A stretch of 10,288 nucleotides of DNA, from the UHGV virus genome UHGV-0129999. One strand, 5' to 3'. The DNA is from a virus. Positions 3,089 through 8,999 of the stretch are shown here, one piece after another. The notes under the pieces are model-generated. The model made no database searches and had not been told where the DNA came from. It was given only the letters and a program-made list of their open reading frames with translations. Position 1 is the stretch's first letter. The number at the start of each line of letters is the position of its first letter. A program made the translations under genes and the position numbers.

Positions 3089-4087
3089 TTATCCGTTACC
3101 GCGCGACGGTTTCTGCGTGATAAACGTCTCAAGCATCTTTTCCGCAATTGCCGACCAGGTGTGACACTGGACCTTTTCAGCATTTTTCACGCGATCAACG
3201 CGAGCAATAACCTCATCCCAATCAATCCGCGACTTGATAACCATATGGTTCACCAAAGCCAGGCGATCTGGCGGAAGGCAATCGGGAGGCGTTAATACCA
3301 ACGCCCCACACATTGCCGCCTCAAGAACAGTTAATCCAAGGCTTTCGGGATGCGTAACAATAAAAACATCACTCTTACGCAATTCAGCTGCAAATTCGGT
3401 TGCTGGTACCGGCGTCCGTCTGTATGGAGTTACCGAAATATTCCCCGGATCAATGGTAACCAATCCGTCATCGGTCAACGTTCTGGCCTCATACGGAACA
3501 GTCAGACGCTGAAGGTTCATAAGGATACTTAAGGAGTGATCAAACCCACTAACATCAAATGCAGCGTGGTCTACAAAAATACGCAGAACATCGTCTGTTT
3601 TGGTTTCCAGATGGAACAGCTCCTGATTCGCTGCCCATCCAACATGTTTGTTAAAGCGATTATGACGCTCTAACCTGCCGGGATTATCCAGGTACCGCCA
3701 GGTATCATCGCGGACAGTAAAAGTAATATCAACTGGTGCCGAATCCAGCATAGAACCGTCGTATACCTGAGCTACCCATCCAGTGAATCGACGACGCAGT
3801 TGCACGCCTATTTCCCTGGGCACCGTAGTAAAATACCGCAATCCTGGCGCTAAAATGGCTTTCGCAGAACACGAGAGCGCAGCGGTCAACACAGCTTCAA
3901 CATAATCCTCCGGGCTTTCGACGCCGGGGGAATATGGACGATGGTATTGCAATGTTACCCCTGCCTCACTAAAGGCGCAGGCCAGGTTGTAAGCCCACAT
4001 TTCCGTATATGTTTTCACATCACTGATAGCTTCAAATTTTCGCCCAATGATCAGGATGTTCATCGGCTTTTCCTCATTCCATTGCAT
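3089..4087 (-). CDS. Putative GT-B fold glycosyltransferase (family 1/4-like), translationally coupled to the upstream helicase gene; occupies the position of P1 dbn (downstream of ban)
   Basis: 332-aa ORF. C-terminal region ESLGLTVLEAAMCGALVLTP matches the E-x7-E motif region of retaining GT-B glycosyltransferases (compare EGFGLxxLEAMAxGxPVI). Start ATG overlaps the helicase stop as TAATG (4085-4089). An alternative start at the ninth codon (ATG at 4063, MNILIIGRK) has a stronger GAGGAA Shine-Dalgarno. Confidence 0.6.
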   Translation of the reverse strand: MQWNEEKPMNILIIGRKFEAISDVKTYTEMWAYNLACAFSEAGVTLQYHRPYSPGVESPEDYVEAVLTAALSCSAKAILAPGLRYFTTVPREIGVQLRRRFTGWVAQVYDGSMLDSAPVDITFTVRDDTWRYLDNPGRLERHNRFNKHVGWAANQELFHLETKTDDVLRIFVDHAAFDVSGFDHSLSILMNLQRLTVPYEARTLTDDGLVTIDPGNISVTPYRRTPVPATEFAAELRKSDVFIVTHPESLGLTVLEAAMCGALVLTPPDCLPPDRLALVNHMVIKSRIDWDEVIARVDRVKNAEKVQCHTWSAIAEKMLETFITQKPSRGNG

Positions 4088-5451
4088 TAATAATCCTCTT
4101 GCCAGTCAGCACCAGCATAGTTATCAAACCGTGAGTATTGGCCGTTAAAAGCCAATCTCACCGTGCCAATTGGGCCATTTCGTTGCTTTCCGATAATTAC
4201 CTCGGCAATGCCCTTCATTTCGCTATCCGGGTGATAAACTTCGTCGCGATACAGAAACATGATCAGGTCTGCGTCCTGCTCAATTGCTCCTGATTCACGT
4301 AAATCTGAATTTACCGGTCGTTTGTCCGCACGCTGTTCAAGCGATCGATTAAGTTGTGACAATGCCACCACCGGTACTTGTAATTCCTTCGCCAACGCCT
4401 TCAGTGAGCGAGAAATCTCGGCAATTTCCAGCGTTCGGTTATCTTGCAGCTCGGGGACGCGCATAAGTTGCAGGTAGTCGATCATAATCATGCTCAAACC
4501 ACCATTTTCTTTATAAACACGACGAGCGCGGGAACGAAGCTCTGTAGGTGTCAGGGCGCTTGAGTCATCAATAAAAATATTCTGCTTGTCCAACAGAATC
4601 CCCATTGCGCCAGAAACCCGCGCCCAATCCTCGTCGTTAAGTTGCCCTGTTCGAATACGAGTCTGATCAACGCGTGCAAGAGAAGCCAGTGAGCGCATCA
4701 TCAGCTGGTGGCTCGGCATCTCAAGGCTAAAAACCAATACGGGCTTATCGTTACGGACTGCGGCATTTTCGACGAGATTCATCGCAAACGTAGTCTTCCC
4801 CATCGATGGGCGGGCGGCGACAATAATGAGATCGGACGCCTGAAGTCCTGCCGTCTTCTTATTGAGATCGGTAAATCCGGTATCAAGCCCCGTTACACCA
4901 TCATGCGGTCGCTGAAACAACTCTTCTATGCGAGATACCGTTGCATCGAGAATGCTGGCGATATCTTTTGGACCACTACCGCTCTTTTGTCGTTTTTCAG
5001 CTATTTCAAAAACGCGGCGCTCGGCCATATCCAGCAATTCATTGCTGCCCCTGCCATCCTGCGCATATCCAGCTTCGGCTATTTCATTTGCGACGGAAAT
5101 CATTTCACGAACAACCGCGCGTTCACGAACGATATCCGCATAAGCACAAATATTTGCCGCGCTGGGCGTGTTCTTTGACATCTCCGCAAGGTACGCAAAA
5201 CCACCGGCGCGTTCTAATTTACCGTTCTGTTCAAGTGCTTCAGCAAGTGTTATCAAATCAATCGGTTTGCCATGACTTAATAACCTCTCCATCTCACTGA
5301 AAATTTCACGATGAGCACTGGTATAAAAATCATCAGTAACTATACGATCTGCAACTTCATCCCAGCGGCAGTTATCAAGCATTAAGCCACCAAGTACAGC
5401 TTGTTCTGCACTAAGGGAATTTGGCATGGATTCAAGAGGGGATGCAGACAT
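4087..5451 (-). CDS. ban: Replicative DNA helicase, DnaB family (phage P1 Ban-like DnaB analogue)
   Basis: Protein is collinear with E. coli DnaB along its length (AEQAVLGGLMLDN, GFAYLAEMSKNTPSAANI, Walker A ARPSMGKTTFAMNLVENAA, IDYLQLMRVPELQDNRTLEIAEISRSLKALAKEL, SQLNRSLEQRADKRPVNSDLRESG) but diverges at the N-terminus and scattered positions, as expected for a phage paralogue. The ORF track starts at GTG 5457; ATG at 5451 is preferred because GGAG lies 5 nt upstream of it. Confidence 0.9.
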   Translation of the reverse strand: MSASPLESMPNSLSAEQAVLGGLMLDNCRWDEVADRIVTDDFYTSAHREIFSEMERLLSHGKPIDLITLAEALEQNGKLERAGGFAYLAEMSKNTPSAANICAYADIVRERAVVREMISVANEIAEAGYAQDGRGSNELLDMAERRVFEIAEKRQKSGSGPKDIASILDATVSRIEELFQRPHDGVTGLDTGFTDLNKKTAGLQASDLIIVAARPSMGKTTFAMNLVENAAVRNDKPVLVFSLEMPSHQLMMRSLASLARVDQTRIRTGQLNDEDWARVSGAMGILLDKQNIFIDDSSALTPTELRSRARRVYKENGGLSMIMIDYLQLMRVPELQDNRTLEIAEISRSLKALAKELQVPVVALSQLNRSLEQRADKRPVNSDLRESGAIEQDADLIMFLYRDEVYHPDSEMKGIAEVIIGKQRNGPIGTVRLAFNGQYSRFDNYAGADWQEDY

Positions 5452-5735: not shown

Positions 5736-5811
5736 TGGTGGCCCCTACCGGACTTGAACCGGTGACCGTGCGATTATGAGTCGCCAGCTCTAACCACTGA
5801 GCTAAAGGGCC
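5736..5811 (-). tRNA. tRNA-Ile (anticodon CAU, lysidine type; automated tools may label it tRNA-Met)
   Basis: Reverse complement GGCCCTTTAGCTCAGTGGTTAGAGCTGGCGACTCATAATCGCACGGTCACCGGTTCAAGTCCGGTAGGGGCCACCA (76 nt) folds as a canonical cloverleaf with encoded CCA; anticodon loop CUCAUAA; anticodon stem-loop nearly identical to E. coli ileX as recalled from memory. One G-A mismatch at the 27-43 pair. Confidence 0.85.
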
Positions 5812-5838: not shown

Positions 5839-6666
5839 TTATTTCACCGGAACAAACGGAACAGCGGTATTACTGGTCATATACTGCGGTAATGTACCGT
5901 TCCATTTGTTGATCGCTTCCAACTCCATAACACCGGGGTTCTGGCGCAGAGCTTCACCACGTAAACGAATGGCATCAGCTTCGGCCTGGGCTTTTGTGCG
6001 AATAGCATCAGCCTGTCCGGCAGCTTCCGCGCGCAGCATGTTGGCCTCTGCTTCACGTTGTTTGACCTCTTGCTCGCGTTGCAGGGTTTTTTGGTTTGCC
6101 GTGACTTTGGCGTTAATACTGTCAATAACTGTTGGCGGGTATTCTGGCTTACCTACATAAGAGAGGCTCATCACCTGAATGCCGATTGGCGTCATTTCTT
6201 CCTGAATGTCTTTAAGGGCTGCATCAAGCAATTCGGATTTGCCACCGTCGATAAATTTGTCGGTTGTCATTTTGCTGGCTAACCGGTTCAGAGCATCTGC
6301 AACCTTCTGGCGTAGATCGGTATCAGTAATATCATCTACACCTTTGCGATAGGTCTGAAATACCGTTGTGACTTTTGCTGGATCAACCTTGTAGGCTACG
6401 CCGATGTGGTAACCAATGGTTGTTCCGTCGCTCATCTGGAAGCTGAACGGCTCATCGTATGTCTTCATTTGCTTAAAGGTCGGGAAGATATAAACTTCAG
6501 TATTCAAGCCTGTCCAGTAGCGACCAACGCCAACTACTTCACCGATACCTTTATCATCCCCCAGCTTATTTACTTTGATCCCTACGTTACCTGGCTCTAC
6601 CCGATCGCATCCGGTCAGACATAAAGAACCCAAAATAATCGCTGCACTAATCAACGTTTTTTTCAT
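5839..6666 (-). CDS. SPFH/Band-7 (stomatin/prohibitin-like) domain lipoprotein
   Basis: 275 aa; N-terminal signal peptide with lipobox (LCLTGC); central region typical of SPFH domains followed by a long Ala/Glu/Gln/Arg-rich coiled-coil tail (QREQEVKQREAEANMLRAEAAGQADAIRTKAQAEADAIRLRGEAL). AGGAAA Shine-Dalgarno upstream of ATG 6666. May correspond to P1 plp (from memory of the P1 map, not verified). Confidence 0.8.
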   Translation of the reverse strand: MKKTLISAAIILGSLCLTGCDRVEPGNVGIKVNKLGDDKGIGEVVGVGRYWTGLNTEVYIFPTFKQMKTYDEPFSFQMSDGTTIGYHIGVAYKVDPAKVTTVFQTYRKGVDDITDTDLRQKVADALNRLASKMTTDKFIDGGKSELLDAALKDIQEEMTPIGIQVMSLSYVGKPEYPPTVIDSINAKVTANQKTLQREQEVKQREAEANMLRAEAAGQADAIRTKAQAEADAIRLRGEALRQNPGVMELEAINKWNGTLPQYMTSNTAVPFVPVK

Positions 6667-6883
6667 TAATTAATTTCCTGGTTTTTTCACGAAAAAAGAC
6701 TACTGCGAAAGCTGGGTAAATGAGCGCGAGAAGGACTCCCAACAATACAAGTATTGTGCTGTTAGATGAGATCATATTTGGCAAAAGCCAAACATACAGA
6801 ACCAGTGACACAATCAAACAGAGGACGGCATAAATATATAACCGCACCCATAGCGTTCGACATTTGTTCGGATTGTTCTGCAT
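6647..6883 (-). CDS. Small two-helix integral membrane protein, overlapping the start of the SPFH lipoprotein gene
   Basis: 78-aa ORF with two hydrophobic stretches (LYIYAVLCLIVSLVLYVWLL and ILVLLGVLLALIYPAFAVVFF); GGAGTGAGAGG upstream of ATG 6883; 3' end overlaps the downstream lipoprotein gene by 20 nt, suggesting co-expression. May correspond to P1 upl. Confidence 0.55.
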   Translation of the reverse strand: MQNNPNKCRTLWVRLYIYAVLCLIVSLVLYVWLLPNMISSNSTILVLLGVLLALIYPAFAVVFFREKTRKLINEKNVD

Positions 6884-7064
6884 CCTCTCACTCCATTATT
6901 TAACGAATAAAAAAGCTGCGGTGCCGGGTGCCTCCCGGTGTCCTTTGGCTGGTTATCCACCGTGGACGGGGAAACAAGGAGAAATGAATGGACTGATATA
7001 ACCATTTCCCCGCGTGCGCTTAGCCGCATTCACCGCAACGGAAAGAGCATTCTTGGTGGACCTG

Positions 7065-7088
7065 TAGATTGGGATATGAACCCGTTAC
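7065..7088. repeat. 24-bp motif TAGATTGGGATATGAACCCGTTAC, copy 1 of 2 (plus a partial third copy at 7901..7917)
   Basis: Direct observation: 23/24 identity with 7344..7367; core GGG-ATATGA-CCC is an interrupted palindrome, and on the - strand reads GGGTTCATATCCC (tRNA T-arm-like). Confidence 0.5.
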
Positions 7089-7343
7089 AGGAGAATGCTC
7101 TTACCTGTTACGTGCTCCGTTTCGTGGAGCTAACGGCGGGTGATCAGACCGCACCAGACTGGACTTATTTCAGCGTTATGCTCATGCCAGAGAATCAAAC
7201 TGTGATGGTCGGTGCTGAACTCCGACACAGGGTTGTAGCAAGCCCCGCAAAGCGCGCACTACTGTAGTTGCGGCACATCAGCCTGTGCATTCACCACAAT
7301 GTTGAGAACACTGGTTGTCACGCTGCCTCGCGACATTTATTCA

Positions 7344-7367
7344 TAGATTGGGATATGACCCCGTTAC
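7344..7367. repeat. 24-bp motif TAGATTGGGATATGACCCCGTTAC, copy 2 of 2
   Basis: Direct observation; flanked by an inverted repeat pair (AATGTTGAGAACA at 7298..7310 and TGTTCTCAACGTT at about 7363..7375). Confidence 0.5.
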
Positions 7368-7533
7368 GCCAATGTTCTCAACGTTGTAGTGCCGGTTACG
7401 GTTCCGGCCAGGCCTCTTCCTCAACGGGGTGTTCTCCATACGGACTACCGTTTATTGGTCGTTCCTGCGGTTTATGTTGTGAAGCCAGATGCTTATCTTC
7501 TGGTTGCTTCTAAGAGCTGCACTTCATCACAAC

Positions 7534-7607
7534 GGTAAGGGTACTTCGTAGGGATTCGAACCCTCTGCCAAGCTCGGCGATCTCCGACGTCGCAAAATAC
7601 CCTTACC
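7534..7607 (-). ncRNA. Non-canonical tRNA-like element (possible pseudo-tRNA or structured RNA) directly 3' of tRNA-Thr
   Basis: The - strand reads GGTAAGGGTATTTTGCGACGTCGGAGATCGCCGAGCTTGGCAGAGGGTTCGAATCCCTACGAAGTACCCTTACC (74 nt): perfect 10-bp terminal helix (GGTAAGGGTA / TACCCTTACC), canonical T-loop GGGTTCGAATCCC, but no recognisable D-arm or anticodon arm and no encoded CCA. Lies 8 nt after tRNA-Thr. Confidence 0.3.
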
Positions 7608-7615
7608 TGTTGTGC

Positions 7616-7692
7616 TGGTGCCGATTAACGGACTCGAACCGCTGACATCCTGCTTACAAGGCAGGCGCTCTACCAACTGAGCTAAACCGGCA
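7616..7692 (-). tRNA. tRNA-Thr (anticodon UGU)
   Basis: Reverse complement TGCCGGTTTAGCTCAGTTGGTAGAGCGCCTGCCTTGTAAGCAGGATGTCAGCGGTTCGAGTCCGTTAATCGGCACCA (77 nt): 7-bp acceptor stem, D-arm GCTCAGTTGGTAGAGC, anticodon loop CUUGUAA, T-arm GGTTCGAGTCC, encoded CCA. Confidence 0.85.
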
Positions 7693-7693
7693 T

Positions 7694-7769
7694 TGGCGAT
7701 GGTGGATGGATTTGAACCATCGACCCGTTGATTAACAGTCAACCGCTCTAACCGCTGAGCTACACCATC
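7694..7769 (-). tRNA. tRNA-Asn (anticodon GUU)
   Basis: Reverse complement GATGGTGTAGCTCAGCGGTTAGAGCGGTTGACTGTTAATCAACGGGTCGATGGTTCAAATCCATCCACCATCGCCA (76 nt): canonical cloverleaf, anticodon loop CUGUUAA, encoded CCA; separated from tRNA-Thr by 1 nt. Confidence 0.85.
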
Positions 7770-8000
7770 ACTTGCCGGGTACGTCTCCGGCGAGGGCTTC
7801 CACCTCCGTATGCTTTTCGGCGCACCGCGCCCTGGCTGCAATTCGGTAACAGGGGATGCATAACCCTGGCTTCCAGCGTGATTAGCGCTTTCAGCATGAC
7901 GGGATATACCCGTAAATTCGTGGAACTGTACCCAAAGTGCTGTTAAGCACCGCTGTTACGCTGAAAAGAAGACGCAACAGGAAAGGACGCTGACCAACAG

Positions 8001-8537
8001 ATGGCCCCTTATGCAGATCTGTCAATGCTGCTTCAACTCGATATTGGTTGGGATGTTTACTGCCGTGCCAATGAGCGAGAAGTTTCAGAACTGCCGATCT
8101 CTATTGCCATTGGTGATGTGAATATTACTAAATCGCTTGAGGACGCTGTTAACGCGCTTAATACATCAAGTTTAGTCGCTGCTATGGGGGAGATTAACCA
8201 GACCCTTAACACTGGCTCAGGAAGCTCGTCAGGCTCTGGTTCAGGCGGCGGCACTGCCACTCCCCCACCAGCACTAACAGAAGAGCAAATTGAATCTCTG
8301 AAAGTAGCAACTGAACAGTTTGGGGTTGTTTTCAACCAGACAACAGCGCCCACAACTGCGTTACAACAGCAGTATGAACGAGCGAAGGAAAGCGCCAACG
8401 TAGCCATAACTGCTTATAACCATGCTATCGGTACCGCGCTTGCGGAAGCATCAGCAAATAAGGTCAGCACAGCCAGCGCAGTTGCCGTTTTGGTTCCTGA
8501 TTCTGTTCTTGATGAATTAAACAAAGCGGCACAGTAA
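8001..8537 (+). CDS. Hypothetical two-domain protein with a Gly/Ser-rich linker (GSGSSSGSGSGGG); function unknown
   Basis: 178-aa ORF on the strand of the downstream genes; no strong Shine-Dalgarno at the ATG at 8001, so the start is uncertain. No TM segment or recognised motif. Confidence 0.45.
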   Translation: MAPYADLSMLLQLDIGWDVYCRANEREVSELPISIAIGDVNITKSLEDAVNALNTSSLVAAMGEINQTLNTGSGSSSGSGSGGGTATPPPALTEEQIESLKVATEQFGVVFNQTTAPTTALQQQYERAKESANVAITAYNHAIGTALAEASANKVSTASAVAVLVPDSVLDELNKAAQ

Positions 8538-8576
8538 CAAAGGACTTCATTGATAATTTTTCTTCAGGAGGAAGGC

Positions 8577-8999
8577 ATGTCATTCTTTTCTACGTTAAAA
8601 ACAGCTTTGTCTTTGAAGGAGAAACTTGCTGCTACTGGTGTTCTTGTTCTGATTTGCGCACTTGTTGGTGCTGGGTTTGCATGGGAACGTCATCAGCTAA
8701 AGCAAGCCATGGAGAAAATTGGCAGTCTTGATCAGGCTGTTAAGGAACGTGATAAGTCAATAATGGATCTTAACCAGACCATTGAGACGATGAACAAAGC
8801 AGAGCAACATTTTCACAGCCAGGAAGTGAAAAATGAATCAGAACAAGCCAAATATGCTGACAGGCAAATGGAACGAAAAGCTGAAGTTCAGAAACAACTG
8901 GTTGCGGCGGGTAATGTTCGCCAGCGCATTCCTGCTGACACTCAGCGGTTGCTCCGGCAGTCGATCAGCGAATTTAACGCCGACGCCGACAAAGGTTAA
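8577..8999 (+). CDS. Rz-like inner-membrane spanin (i-spanin)-like protein: N-terminal TM anchor plus periplasmic coiled coil
   Basis: AGGAGGAAGG Shine-Dalgarno before ATG 8577 (the ORF track's 8550 start is TTG). Single N-terminal TM (LAATGVLVLICALVGAGFAW) then charged helical region; C-terminal QKQLVAAGNVRQRIPADTQRL resembles the lambda Rz segment RDDVAAGRRRLHIKA. Contains an embedded +1-frame lipoprotein gene. Confidence 0.6.
   Translation: MSFFSTLKTALSLKEKLAATGVLVLICALVGAGFAWERHQLKQAMEKIGSLDQAVKERDKSIMDLNQTIETMNKAEQHFHSQEVKNESEQAKYADRQMERKAEVQKQLVAAGNVRQRIPADTQRLLRQSISEFNADADKG

What the first reader, a model, noticed from the sequence alone, without database searches (positions are those of the whole stretch)
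6884..7533. 650-bp gap with no convincing ORF but dense in repeats and stem-loops, between the tRNA cluster and the membrane-protein operon
No ORF here has a credible ribosome-binding site; the two + strand ORFs in the track start at GTG/ATG without a Shine-Dalgarno and simply read through repeats. The region holds two near-identical 24-bp motifs (7065..7088, 7344..7367), an inverted pair GTTGAGAACA / TGTTCTCAAC flanking the second copy, a 9-bp stem (7083..7112) and a 5-bp stem (7112..7132). On the - strand, copy 1 reads as three successive hairpins in tRNA-like order (GCTCC-ACGAAAC-GGAGC; a long arm; GGGTTCATATCCC) but with no acceptor stem. It could be a structured RNA within a long tRNA-containing transcript, degenerate tRNA-like modules, or a set of operator sites. 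A strong AAGGAG at 6973..6978 precedes only a 5-codon ORF (ATG 6984).
Basis: seen in the sequence. Interest (0 to 1): 0.6.

Follow-up and report, generated by a model that had tools for sequence, protein, structure and literature searches.

The report
Conserved phage leader-RNA hairpins, not genes
The "empty" 650-bp gap in this P1-like phage-plasmid is a stack of conserved, folded non-coding RNA modules, including three copies of a hairpin that phage lambda carries just after its late terminator; this argues that two annotated P1 genes (upl, plp) are not real and exposes a widespread hairpin family that has no entry in Rfam.

Summary
The window is a P1-like phage-plasmid and the gap lies downstream of tRNA-Asn/tRNA-Thr on the minus strand, the strand of the P1 ban operon.

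- **Three hairpins.** The repeats and stems resolve into three copies of one hairpin family, all on the minus strand: A 7116-7022, B 7392-7283, C 7618-7516. Each has a bulged stem of about 20 bp (consensus CACAAC-A-GGUAAGAGCAUUG ... CAGUGCUCUUUCC-GUUGUG) around a swappable core.
The two 24-mers are the shared inner part of cores A and B. GTTGAGAACA/TGTTCTCAAC are the covaried arms of B.
- **Distribution.** The same hairpin starts about 8 nt after the U-run of tR' in lambda. It occurs in more than 120 viral contigs and many Enterobacterales genomes, with about 40 unrelated core families. Eleven of 19 stem pairs covary. No Rfam family reaches its gathering score on it.
- **Left end.** 7037-6917 (minus) is a domain like the core of sRNA STnc100, below Rfam's threshold.
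- **Strand.** The minus strand folds with z = -7.5, the plus strand with z = -2.9.
- **What it is not.** The annotated P1 ORFs upl and plp are not conserved as reading frames. No tRNA model and no C1 operator matches.

Most likely mechanism (inferred): RNase III-type processing hairpins that punctuate a tRNA/sRNA/mRNA precursor. Novelty is moderate.

The parts
7516..7618 (-). Hairpin C. It follows the tRNA-Thr 3' end directly. Arms GGUAAGGGUA / UACCCUUACC. The core holds a canonical T-arm, AGGGUUCGAAUCCCU, plus two small hairpins.
   Evidence: Inverted repeat I4. R1 covariance model 57.1 bits on minus against 28.1 on plus. The same core type is found in 21 pattern hits.
7283..7392 (-). Hairpin B, a covaried copy with arms GUUGAGAACAUUGG / CCAGUGUUCUCAAC. 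The core contains 24-mer copy 2.
   Evidence: Inverted repeat I1, 23 nt. R1 35.9 bits, E 1.6e-8, and this copy was not in the training set; 18.9 bits on plus. Three pairs are changed on both sides relative to the consensus arms.
7022..7116 (-). Hairpin A, with consensus arms, a bulged A and a U.U mismatch. The core contains 24-mer copy 1 and CCUGUA/UACAGG.
   Evidence: Inverted repeat I2. R1 70.2 bits on minus against 23.8 on plus. A Salmonella SSU5-like homologue keeps the stem through G.U changes that are valid only on this strand.
7065..7088 (-). 24-mer copy 1, the inner part of core A (GUAACGGGUUCAUAUCCCAAUCUA on the minus strand).
   Evidence: It is found only in A-type and B-type cores of P1-like and SSU5-like elements.
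7344..7367 (-). 24-mer copy 2, the inner part of core B.
   Evidence: Locus L041 carries a hybrid hairpin of the kind expected from recombination between the two copies.
6917..7037 (-). Multi-stem domain like the core of sRNA STnc100. It ends 34 nt before the ATG of the 78-aa membrane gene.
   Evidence: Rfam RF02076 37.8 bits (gathering score 47), model positions 31-147 of 206. Nine of 29 pairs have changes on both sides among 13 variants. The homology breakpoint with reference P1 is at 6917.
7114..7130 (-). Small hairpin GCUCC-ACGAAAC-GGAGC, a recurrent left neighbour of the big hairpin.
   Evidence: The same hairpin precedes the element in 20 of 130 distinct contexts.
7136..7152 (-). Small hairpin GCGG-UCUGAUCAC-CCGC with a conserved loop.
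   Evidence: Variants GCAG...CUGC and CAG...CUG appear with the same loop in other phages (read directly from the sequences).
7476..7519 (-). Conserved right flank of hairpin C (UGAUGAAGUGCAGC... plus hairpin CCAGA-AGAUAAGCA-UCUGG).
   Evidence: About 94% identical over 66 bp in Klebsiella SSU5-like plasmids. It is a recurrent right-flank family.
7616..7769 (-). tRNA-Thr(TGT) 7616-7691 and tRNA-Asn(GTT) 7694-7769, the upstream members of the same array.
7973..8010 (-). 3' half of a fourth hairpin copy (D). Its 5' arm was removed by a deletion whose junction is at 8010|8011.
   Evidence: D is intact in P1 at L001 5044-5140 (35.0 bits) and in L104 at 7784-7880 (32.5 bits; sequence). Junction mapped.

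Best explanation
The gap is the non-coding, highly folded middle of the tRNA-containing leader of the P1 ban operon, read on the minus strand.

**What it is made of**
- Three copies (A, B, C) of one conserved hairpin, plus a truncated fourth copy (D). Each has a stem of about 20 bp with a bulged A and usually a U.U mismatch. The stem encloses a 33-60-nt core that differs completely between copies and between phages.
- A domain like the core of sRNA STnc100, just before the first protein-coding gene.
- A few small hairpins with conserved loops.

**Where else it occurs**
- The hairpin is the element that starts about 8 nt after the U-run of tR' in lambda's late leader.
- In the related contigs it directly follows tRNA 3' ends, directly precedes tRNA 5' ends, or follows terminators.

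**Proposed mechanism (inferred, not shown)**
- The long double-stranded stems are RNase III-type processing signals.
- Cleavage would cut the untranslated tRNA/small-RNA/mRNA precursor into units. This would free the tRNA precursors from hairpin trailers that exonucleases cannot cross, and leave stem-protected ends on the downstream RNA. Phage T7 early RNA and the ribosomal RNA operons work this way.
- A by-product is that the near-identical arms give unrelated phages portable homology. That explains why flanks and cores are shuffled.

The annotated ORFs upl and plp are read-throughs of these RNA modules, not genes.
For: **Shown**
- Three family members sit on the minus strand and score two to three times higher there than on the plus strand.
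- The stem is supported by covariation. On the alignment of covariance-model hits, 11 of 19 pairs change on both sides and 94.7% of cells pair, against at most 59% when partners are slid; 0 of 500 shuffles reach the observed values. On an independent MAFFT alignment, 4 of 19 pairs change on both sides and 0 of 500 shuffles reach the observed score.
- G.U pairs are frequent and would be A.C mismatches on the other strand.
- The lambda copy scores 73.9 bits and starts about 8 nt after the tR' U-run.
Enterobacterales genomes also carry the element.
- All 31 tRNAs within 400 nt are on the hairpin's strand. Local genes run the same way in 86 of 118 contexts and the opposite way in 23.
- Fold z-score is -7.5 on the minus strand and -2.9 on the plus strand.
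- The STnc100-like domain covaries at 9 of 29 pairs.
- The ORFs are not conserved and have no Pfam match.
- In P1 and P7 the array lies downstream of the C1-controlled Pban promoter. The P7 record says that operator controls 'trnRNA'.

**Inferred**
- RNase III cleavage. The basis is the stem length, together with the title of Daniels et al. [quoted passage not shown] My recollection is that those sites lie in the dyad just after tR'.
Against: - I could not read the 1988 paper, so the coordinates of the lambda RNase III sites are unverified.
- No cleavage data exist for P1.
- The arms are conserved in sequence more than RNase III, a weakly sequence-specific enzyme, would seem to require.
- The cores are not merely drifted but unrelated, and several families carry T-arm-like hairpins. 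Simple processing does not explain this.
- G.T wobbles would also be tolerated in a single-stranded DNA hairpin, so the strand asymmetry does not strictly prove an RNA-level role.
- This window has lost the Pban promoter through a 4.36-kb deletion, and no sigma-70-like promoter is predicted in 6600-8300. Whether the array is transcribed in this particular element is therefore unknown.
- The hairpin is absent from the Sakai Sp5 Stx2 phage late leader and from K-12 DLP12 and Qin, so lambdoid late leaders do not universally need it.
Confidence: 0.6

Rival explanations
1. The constant stem is a universal excision cassette and the variable cores are the point. RNase III, or another nuclease, releases each core plus upper stem as a small stable RNA. 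Different phages load different payloads, some of them tRNA-like.
For: About 40 unrelated core families sit in one constant stem. Cores have internal structure with wobble-consistent variation, for example GYCGA/UCGGC in the lambda-type core (read from the sequences). T-arm-like hairpins recur in two or more unrelated families against 0.05 expected from shuffles. The 24-mer stays 23/24 identical in A and B although their arms differ at about a third of positions.
Against: The lambda core has no above-chance complementarity elsewhere in lambda: the longest match is 12 nt, and 12 of 100 shuffles do as well. No small RNA of this kind is on record in Rfam. Cores could simply be unconstrained terminal loops that are replaced by recombination.
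Confidence: 0.15
2. The modules are decayed tRNA genes or functional tRNA mimics, that is, pseudo-tRNAs left over from a larger tRNA array.
For: Related elements carry extra tRNAs in the same array: Tyr between Asn and Thr, and Ser(TGA) in the gap of P7, D6 and SSU5-like plasmids. Core C has a perfect T-arm and three hairpins in tRNA-like order. Rfam's tRNA-like mascRNA model aligns weakly to it, E = 5.4. Hairpins directly abut tRNA ends.
Against: Neither ARAGORN nor Rfam's tRNA model hits anything in 6860-7625 even at E <= 10. GGGUUCAUAUCCC lacks the U54-A58 signature of a T-loop. L006 has both tRNA-Ser and the A-B spacer, so the spacer is not a decayed tRNA-Ser. Most core families have no tRNA feature.
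Confidence: 0.1
3. The inverted repeats act at the DNA level. They would be either linkers for homologous recombination that shuffle cassettes, or folded single-strand recombination sites comparable to integron attC sites, which also have a conserved stem, an extrahelical base and a variable terminal structure.
For: Left flank, core and right flank assort freely over 130 distinct contexts. P1, P7 and RCS47 differ by deletions whose ends lie in one arm or the other. L041 carries a hybrid hairpin. The homology breakpoint is at 6917 and this window's own deletion junction lies inside core D. AAC...GTT is invariant at the base of the stem.
Against: Crossovers occur in either arm, not at one fixed point, which fits general rather than site-specific recombination. 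The R-box consensus RYYYAAC/GTTRRRY is not met, as read directly from the sequence. No dedicated recombinase is evident. The element's orientation follows the direction of transcription and of the tRNAs, which a DNA site would not require. The P1 C1 operator is absent.
Confidence: 0.08
4. upl (7076-7267) and plp (7268 or 7355 to 7513) are real small protein genes on the plus strand, as annotated in the reference P1 genome.
For: They are annotated in NC_005856 and RCS47, with predicted promoters P1upl and P2upl. The ORFs are intact in most very close relatives.
Against: There is no Shine-Dalgarno sequence. The upl ATG is removed by a 13-bp deletion in Ro157. The SSU5-like homologue has no ATG, and about 11 of about 14 substitutions change the amino acid. 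More distant homologues have stops and 1-, 2- or 5-nt indels. plp has a premature stop here and a frameshift in L013, and in P1 it runs antisense through hairpin C into trnT. P7 and D6 replace the upl region and their annotators called neither gene. No Pfam match. The predicted upl promoters lie in tciA, which this window lacks.
Confidence: 0.05
5. The 3' arm UGCUCUUU(C/A)C is a boxA-like site for NusB/NusE. It would give the untranslated leader ribosomal-RNA-type antitermination against Rho.
For: From my own knowledge, UGCUCUUU equals the first 8 nt of the rrn boxA and GCUCUUAC matches lambda nutR boxA. A long untranslated leader would benefit from protection against Rho.
Against: The motif is locked in a stem of about 20 bp. 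Covaried copies lose the boxA sequence but keep the pairing (B: UGUUCUCAAC; L057: UGCCAUUAUC; L026: UUGCCUUUCC), so the structure, not this sequence, is what is conserved.
Confidence: 0.02

Closest known systems
Hairpin in the late leader of phage lambda, immediately downstream of tR' (lambda about 44,784-44,875). It is probably the RNase III processing site of Daniels et al. 1988.
   Same: Same family by covariance model: lambda 73.9 bits; window A 70.2, C 57.1, B 35.9. Same arms, bulged A, U.U mismatch and GGUGAA-type 3' flank. Same kind of location, inside an untranslated leader ahead of the protein genes.
   Different: Lambda has one copy after a terminator. P1-like elements have four copies interleaved with tRNAs and sRNA-like units in a repressor-controlled early operon. 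The cores are unrelated. That the lambda hairpin is the published RNase III site rests on my recollection, not on a verified fact.
STnc100 / PasD family of prophage sRNAs (Rfam RF02076; Zhu, Shabalina and Storz, bioRxiv 2026, 10.64898/2026.05.13.724894).
   Same: The closing helix GGUG...CACC, the CCGGG-AGGCA-CCCGG hairpin and the overall multi-stem fold of model positions 31-147.
   Different: The score is 37.8 bits, below the gathering score of 47. The element lacks the 5' 30 nt and the sRNA's own terminator, which the true STnc100 of Sakai Sp5 has (207.7 bits). Here it is an internal 5'-UTR domain of an operon, not a free-standing sRNA gene.
RNase III sites between the genes of phage T7 early RNA, and the stems that flank 16S and 23S rRNA (my knowledge).
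   Same: Long stems with an irregularity, set between functional units of one long transcript that also carries tRNAs.
   Different: No sequence similarity was tested. Those sites do not share one constant sequence across unrelated phages and do not carry hypervariable cores.
rtT repeats downstream of tyrT, and the stable RNA species 1 and 2 of the T4 tRNA cluster (my knowledge).
   Same: Repeated or structured non-tRNA RNAs that are co-transcribed with tRNA genes and released by processing.
   Different: No Rfam RtT match in the gap. The sequences are unrelated.
Integron attC sites (my knowledge).
   Same: Conserved imperfect inverted repeats with AAC/GTT at the base, an extrahelical base and a variable terminal structure of variable length. 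Associated with cassette shuffling.
   Different: The R-box consensus is not met and there is no integrase. Crossovers are not at one fixed point, and orientation follows transcription.

Membership tests
Lambda-type late-leader hairpin family (model R1, built here) | A stem of about 19 bp, CACAAC-A-GGUAAGAGCAUUG / CAGUGCUCUUUCC-GUUGUG, with one bulged A, enclosing a variable core. | tested here: met
   A 70.2 bits, C 57.1 bits and B 35.9 bits (E 1.6e-8); B was not in the training set. Lambda 73.9 bits.
Lambda-type late-leader hairpin family (model R1, built here) | The helix is maintained by compensatory change. | tested here: met
   11 of 19 pairs change on both sides and 0 of 500 shuffles reach the observed values. 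Hairpin B has three double changes.
RNase III substrate | About two turns (20 bp or more) of mostly regular double-stranded RNA. | tested here: met
   Predicted stems of 19-23 bp with one bulge.
RNase III substrate | RNase III-dependent cleavage with 2-nt 3' overhangs, in vivo or in vitro. | not testable with these tools
   Only the title of the 1988 lambda paper could be confirmed. The paper is not held.
STnc100 (RF02076) | Score at or above the gathering threshold of 47 bits over the full 206-nt model. | tested here: not met
   37.8 bits over model positions 31-147 only. True STnc100 scores 207.7 bits.
STnc100 (RF02076) | The multi-stem core fold is conserved. | tested here: met
   29 predicted pairs, 9 of them with changes on both sides, among 13 variants.
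tRNA / pseudo-tRNA | Cloverleaf detectable by ARAGORN or Rfam RF00005. | tested here: not met
   No hit in 6860-7625 at E <= 10. Only core C has a canonical T-arm.
Y RNA-like YrlA (RF02553) | A long stem plus a tRNA-like module that matches the family model. | tested here: not met
   No YrlA hit on any hairpin at E <= 10. The only YrlA match in the window overlaps the true tRNAs.
P1 C1 operator | A match to ATTGCTCTAATAAATTT. | tested here: not met
   No match at up to 3 mismatches in the whole window.
Protein-coding genes upl / plp | The reading frame and start codon are conserved among homologues, with a ribosome-binding site. | tested here: not met
   Start loss, nonsense codon, frameshifts and out-of-frame indels. 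No Shine-Dalgarno sequence. No Pfam family.
Integron attC | R'' RYYYAAC and R' GTTRRRY boxes, plus an integron integrase. | tested here: not met
   CACAAC/GTTGTG violates the consensus, as read directly. Presence of an integrase was not examined.
Intrinsic terminator | A GC-rich hairpin directly followed by a U run. | tested here: not met
   The scan finds none in the gap. The U6 at 6906-6911 (minus strand) lies 9 nt past the nearest local hairpin.

The most novel reading that the evidence does not exclude
The constant bulged stem is a phage-wide 'presentation and excision' cassette. Temperate phages of Enterobacterales, including lambda, P1-like and SSU5-like phage-plasmids, would use one host-recognised stem to release dozens of unrelated small RNA payloads, some tRNA-like, from leader and tRNA-array transcripts. 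That would make it a modular small-RNA delivery system that has gone unnoticed even in lambda.
Probability: 0.15. Interest if true: 0.8.

Novelty: new variant of a known kind. Interest (0 to 1): 0.55.

Why it matters
- **Re-annotation.** It re-annotates a classic genome. P1's upl and plp, copied into many phage-plasmid records, look like artefacts of reading through RNA hairpins.
- **A new RNA family.** It defines a conserved structured-RNA family that no Rfam model captures at its gathering score. The family is shared by lambda, P1-like and SSU5-like elements and by prophages across Enterobacterales. Its combination of a constant stem and hypervariable cores is unusual.
- **Testable questions.** It gives a concrete way to test how phage tRNA arrays and long untranslated leaders are processed. 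It also offers an explanation for why this region is a hot spot of mosaic exchange.

Tried and rejected
- **Rfam.** No family other than the sub-threshold STnc100 match covers the gap at permissive thresholds. At gathering thresholds no family covered the hairpin in 12 related loci.
- **tRNA finders.** Nothing in the gap.
- **C1 operator scan.** No match.
- **Promoter and terminator scan of 6600-8300.** No promoter-like site and no terminator in the gap.
- **Pfam on Upl and Plp.** No match.
- **K-12 as a source of published RNase III maps.** The DLP12 and Qin late regions do not carry the hairpin.
- **Is the 5' end of STnc100 made inside the hairpin?** No. Sakai Sp5 has a full STnc100 with its own 5' segment and has no hairpin.
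- **Antisense target for the lambda core within lambda.** Nothing above chance.
- **Literature.** The P1 genome paper (PMC523184) and the 1988 lambda paper are not held. Full-text searches for the arm sequences found nothing relevant. Searches for P1 transcriptomics or ban-leader RNA found nothing useful.
- **BoxA reading.** Considered and rejected, because covaried copies lose the motif.
- **MITE-like reading (arms as terminal inverted repeats of the cargo).** Rejected, because most of the listed contigs had a single pattern match and lambda has one copy.
Full report
**Context.** The window is a P1-like phage-plasmid. Positions 6884-7615 are 100% identical to E. coli plasmid NZ_CP067234.1 and 98-99% identical to P1 records. 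In reference P1 the region reads, on the window's minus strand: C1-controlled promoter Pban, a dicF-like region, trnA(Asn), trnT(Thr), the gap, tciABC, trnI, ban, dbn. The P7 record states that the ban operator controls 'trnRNA'.

In this window the tRNAs are at 7769-7694 and 7691-7616 on the minus strand. To the left of 6917 the window carries a 78-aa membrane ORF and an SPFH/Band-7 gene in place of tciABC. In P1 the gap is annotated with two plus-strand ORFs. One is upl, which corresponds to window 7076-7267. The other is plp, which starts at 7268 and in P1 runs antisense into trnT. The annotators of P7 and D6 called neither.

**Check of the observation.** All the repeats and stems exist, apart from small coordinate errors:
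- AAGGAG is at 6976-6981.
- The '9-bp stem' has a central mismatch and is not the real pairing.

There are three long inverted repeats, each followed on the minus strand by the same motif (GGUGAAUGC-like):
- 7040-7053 / 7092-7105
- 7292-7314 / 7369-7391
- 7534-7546 / 7595-7607

As RNA, the minus strand of 6884-7615 folds at -270.3 kcal/mol (z = -7.5). The plus strand folds at -253.8 kcal/mol (z = -2.9).

**What the hairpins are.** Alignment with P1, RCS47, Ro157, D6 and P7 shows constant arms around interchangeable cores. Most lie on contigs of roughly 30-50 kb. These yielded 141 hits with 67 distinct cores.

One group of hits is the late leader of phage lambda. The hairpin occupies lambda about 44,784-44,875 and starts about 8 nt after the U-run of tR'.

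A scan of one genome per species found the element in many Enterobacterales: Serratia, Pectobacterium, Rahnella, Kluyvera, Citrobacter, Klebsiella, Pantoea, Brenneria, Erwinia and others. Hits in unrelated taxa were mostly lambda-sized or low-coverage contigs with the lambda-length match. They look like lambda contamination.

Pooling both scans gives 97 distinct cores in 52 clusters at 70% identity. About 40 of these clusters have the typical TTG...CAG ends.

**Covariance model.** A model (R1) built from 70 hairpins gave these scores in the window:

| Copy | Minus strand (bits) | Plus strand (bits) | In training set |
|---|---|---|---|
| A | 70.2 | 23.8 | yes |
| C | 57.1 | 28.1 | yes |
| B | 35.9 (E 1.6e-8) | 18.9 | no |

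Reference P1 has a fourth copy, D, upstream of trnA (35.0 bits).

**Evidence that the stem is selected, and on which strand.**
- On the MAFFT alignment, 94% of cells pair. Four pairs change on both sides, and 0 of 500 shuffles reach the observed covariation score.
- On the alignment of model hits, which includes copies the exact pattern could not find, 11 of 19 pairs change on both sides. Here 94.7% of cells pair, against at most 59% with slid partners, and 0 of 500 shuffles reach the observed values.
- Whole-arm compensated variants exist: GUUGAGAACA/UGUUCUCAAC (B), GAUAAUGGCA/UGCCAUUAUC, and GGUAAGGCAA/UUGCCUUUCC.
- G.U pairs are common: 55 of 70 sequences at one position, and 12-13 of 70 at two others. 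They would be A.C mismatches on the opposite strand.
- All 31 tRNA genes within 400 nt are on the hairpin's strand. Neighbouring genes run the same way in 86 of 118 contexts and the opposite way in 23.
- The bulged A and a U.U mismatch (GGUAAG against CUUUCC) are themselves conserved.

**Neighbours of the hairpin.** Over 130 distinct contexts the left neighbour is one of several things:
- a terminator-like run of U (28 contexts)
- a tRNA 3' end, as in ...GGCACCA-(A/G)CACAAC... (20 contexts)
- other small hairpins

The right neighbour is usually UGGUGAAUGCGCAGGCUGAUGCGC or a relative. In four contexts it is the first base of a tRNA. Left flank, core and right flank combine freely.

**The 24-mers.** They are the shared inner part of cores A and B and occur only in P1-like and SSU5-like elements. 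They differ at 1 of 24 positions, whereas the arms of A and B differ at roughly a third of positions, mostly as compensating pairs. So the 24-mer is either constrained or was recently homogenised. One contig (L041) has a hybrid hairpin of the kind expected from recombination between the two copies.

Ro157 lacks 13 nt of copy 1. The ATGs that start 'upl' and the shorter 'plp' lie inside the two 24-mers.

**The left end (7037-6917, minus strand).** Rfam's STnc100 model matches at 37.8 bits against a gathering score of 47, over model positions 31-147 of 206.
- STnc100 is a prophage sRNA related to PasD (bioRxiv 10.64898/2026.05.13.724894). In Stx2 phages it lies 75 nt downstream of stx2 (PMC12370729).
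- The true STnc100 of Sakai Sp5 scores 207.7 bits and has its own 5' 30 nt and terminator. The P1-like element has only the core domain.
- Thirteen variants from P1-like, D6/P7-like and other phages share a multi-stem fold, with 9 of 29 pairs changed on both sides. Examples are CCGGG/CCCGG to CCUGG/CCAGG and the closing pair C-G to U-A.

**Not protein-coding.**
- Neither ATG has a Shine-Dalgarno sequence.
- The upl start is deleted in Ro157. The SSU5-like homologue (91-92% identical) has no ATG, and nearly all its substitutions change the amino acid.
- In phages 80-87% identical over the first third of 'upl', the frame is broken by stops and by 1-, 2- and 5-nt indels. What stays conserved ('NALTCYVLRFVELT') is exactly the hairpin arm plus the ACGAAAC hairpin.
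- plp is Cys/Ser/Gly-rich. It ends early in this window at a TAA codon (7511-7513) where close relatives read AAA (Lys), and it is frameshifted in L013.
- No Pfam family matches. No minus-strand ORF is convincing.

**Not tRNA, not an operator.** ARAGORN and Rfam's tRNA model find nothing in the gap. The C1 operator consensus is absent.

Relatives do carry extra tRNAs in the same array. Tyr lies between Asn and Thr in Ro157 and the SSU5-like plasmids. Ser(TGA) lies in the gap of P7, D6 and the SSU5-like plasmids. The whole array, hairpins included, is shared between the P1-like and SSU5/pHCM2-like phage-plasmid lineages.

Core C has a perfect T-arm, and T-arm-like hairpins recur in several unrelated core families. 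Some cores may therefore derive from tRNA fragments.

**Mechanism.** What is shown is a selected, strand-specific family of long stems embedded in untranslated phage leaders next to tRNAs and terminators.

What is inferred is the function. Stems of this length are the natural substrate of RNase III. [quoted passage not shown] I recall those sites lying in the dyad just past tR', but I could not read the paper.

Processing at these stems would release tRNA precursors from hairpin trailers and separate the sRNA-like units from the downstream mRNA.

The alternatives are a payload-presenting cassette, tRNA mimicry, DNA-level recombination sites, and a boxA-like site. They are weighed in the rival explanations. 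The boxA idea fails because covaried copies lose the motif.

**Caveat for this window.** Relative to the closest plasmid, the window lacks 4,356 bp. The missing segment covers the 5' arm of hairpin D, the dicF-like region, Pban, dmt, rdgC/hrdC, uhr and the start of a plus-strand gene. The junction is at 8010|8011 with a 2-nt microhomology. None of the 641 matching plasmid records or 18 matching phage records spans this junction. No promoter-like site is predicted nearby. Transcription of the array in this particular element is therefore unproven.

**Verdict.** The finding is real and more interesting than a simple intergenic gap. It is a mosaic of conserved structured-RNA modules homologous to lambda's late leader. 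It overturns two reference gene calls and reveals a widespread hairpin family, absent from Rfam, with hypervariable cores. The function is inferred, not shown.

Noticed in passing
window 8010|8011 (context 7770-8700): The window is a deletion derivative. Relative to NZ_CP067234.1 it lacks 4,356 bp (5' arm of hairpin D, dicF-like region, Pban operator, dmt, rdgC/hrdC, uhr and about 87 codons of a plus-strand gene), with TT microhomology at the junction. No PLSDB plasmid or GenBank phage record carries this junction.
   Followed up: yes
window 5839-6917: Left of 6917 the window has a 78-aa membrane ORF (6883-6647) and an SPFH/Band-7 gene (6666-5839) where reference P1 has tciA, tciB and tciC. 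The swap boundary coincides exactly with the end of the STnc100-like domain.
   Followed up: partly
L009 2590-2722 (minus strand), Salmonella plasmid NZ_CP030187.1: A tRNA-Thr-like gene keeps the acceptor, D and T arms, but its anticodon arm is replaced by an insert of about 75 nt. ARAGORN does not call it. It looks like a natural 'tRNA scaffold' RNA.
   Followed up: no
L004/L005 1638-1724; L006-L009 (tRNA-Ser, TGA anticodon): The extra tRNA-Ser(UGA) of P7, D6 and the SSU5-like plasmids scores best against Rfam's selenocysteine-tRNA model (41-45 bits, gathering score 47). The D6 annotators noted that tRNAscan-SE would not name its amino acid.
   Followed up: no
Genome-contig loci such as L137, L168, L179, L155, L164: The pattern scan hit contigs of about 48.4-48.5 kb or tiny low-coverage contigs in Pseudomonas, Shewanella, Bacillaceae, Bradyrhizobium, actinomycetes and even an archaeal metagenome bin. 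All have the lambda-length (70-nt) match, so they are almost certainly phage lambda control DNA contaminating those assemblies.
   Followed up: no
L041 about 3790-3880: A hybrid hairpin (5' arm of B, one 24-mer, 3' half of A) shows that the two 24-mers can recombine and delete the roughly 280 bp between them.
   Followed up: partly
L002 (RCS47) 3821-4112: RCS47 carries an extra unit of about 200 bp with one more hairpin between C and the rest. P1 and P7 look like alternative deletions of it through the 3' or the 5' arms.
   Followed up: partly
window 5736-5811 (minus strand): The tRNA called Met(CAT) is P1 trnI. It is annotated in NC_005856 as an ileX-like tRNA-Ile2 and so presumably reads AUA after lysidine modification.
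   Followed up: no
lambda 44,862-44,905 (L130 1063-1106): Lambda has a short version of the GGUG...CCGG-loop-CCGG...CACC domain directly after its hairpin. The hairpin plus an STnc100-like domain may therefore be an ancestral pair (by eye).
   Followed up: no
cores of several hairpin families (for example L013, L021, L057, L071): T-arm-like hairpins (5-bp stem with a TTYRANN loop) recur in unrelated cores far more often than in shuffled cores: 2 strict hits against 0.05 expected, plus several 4-bp cases.
   Followed up: partly
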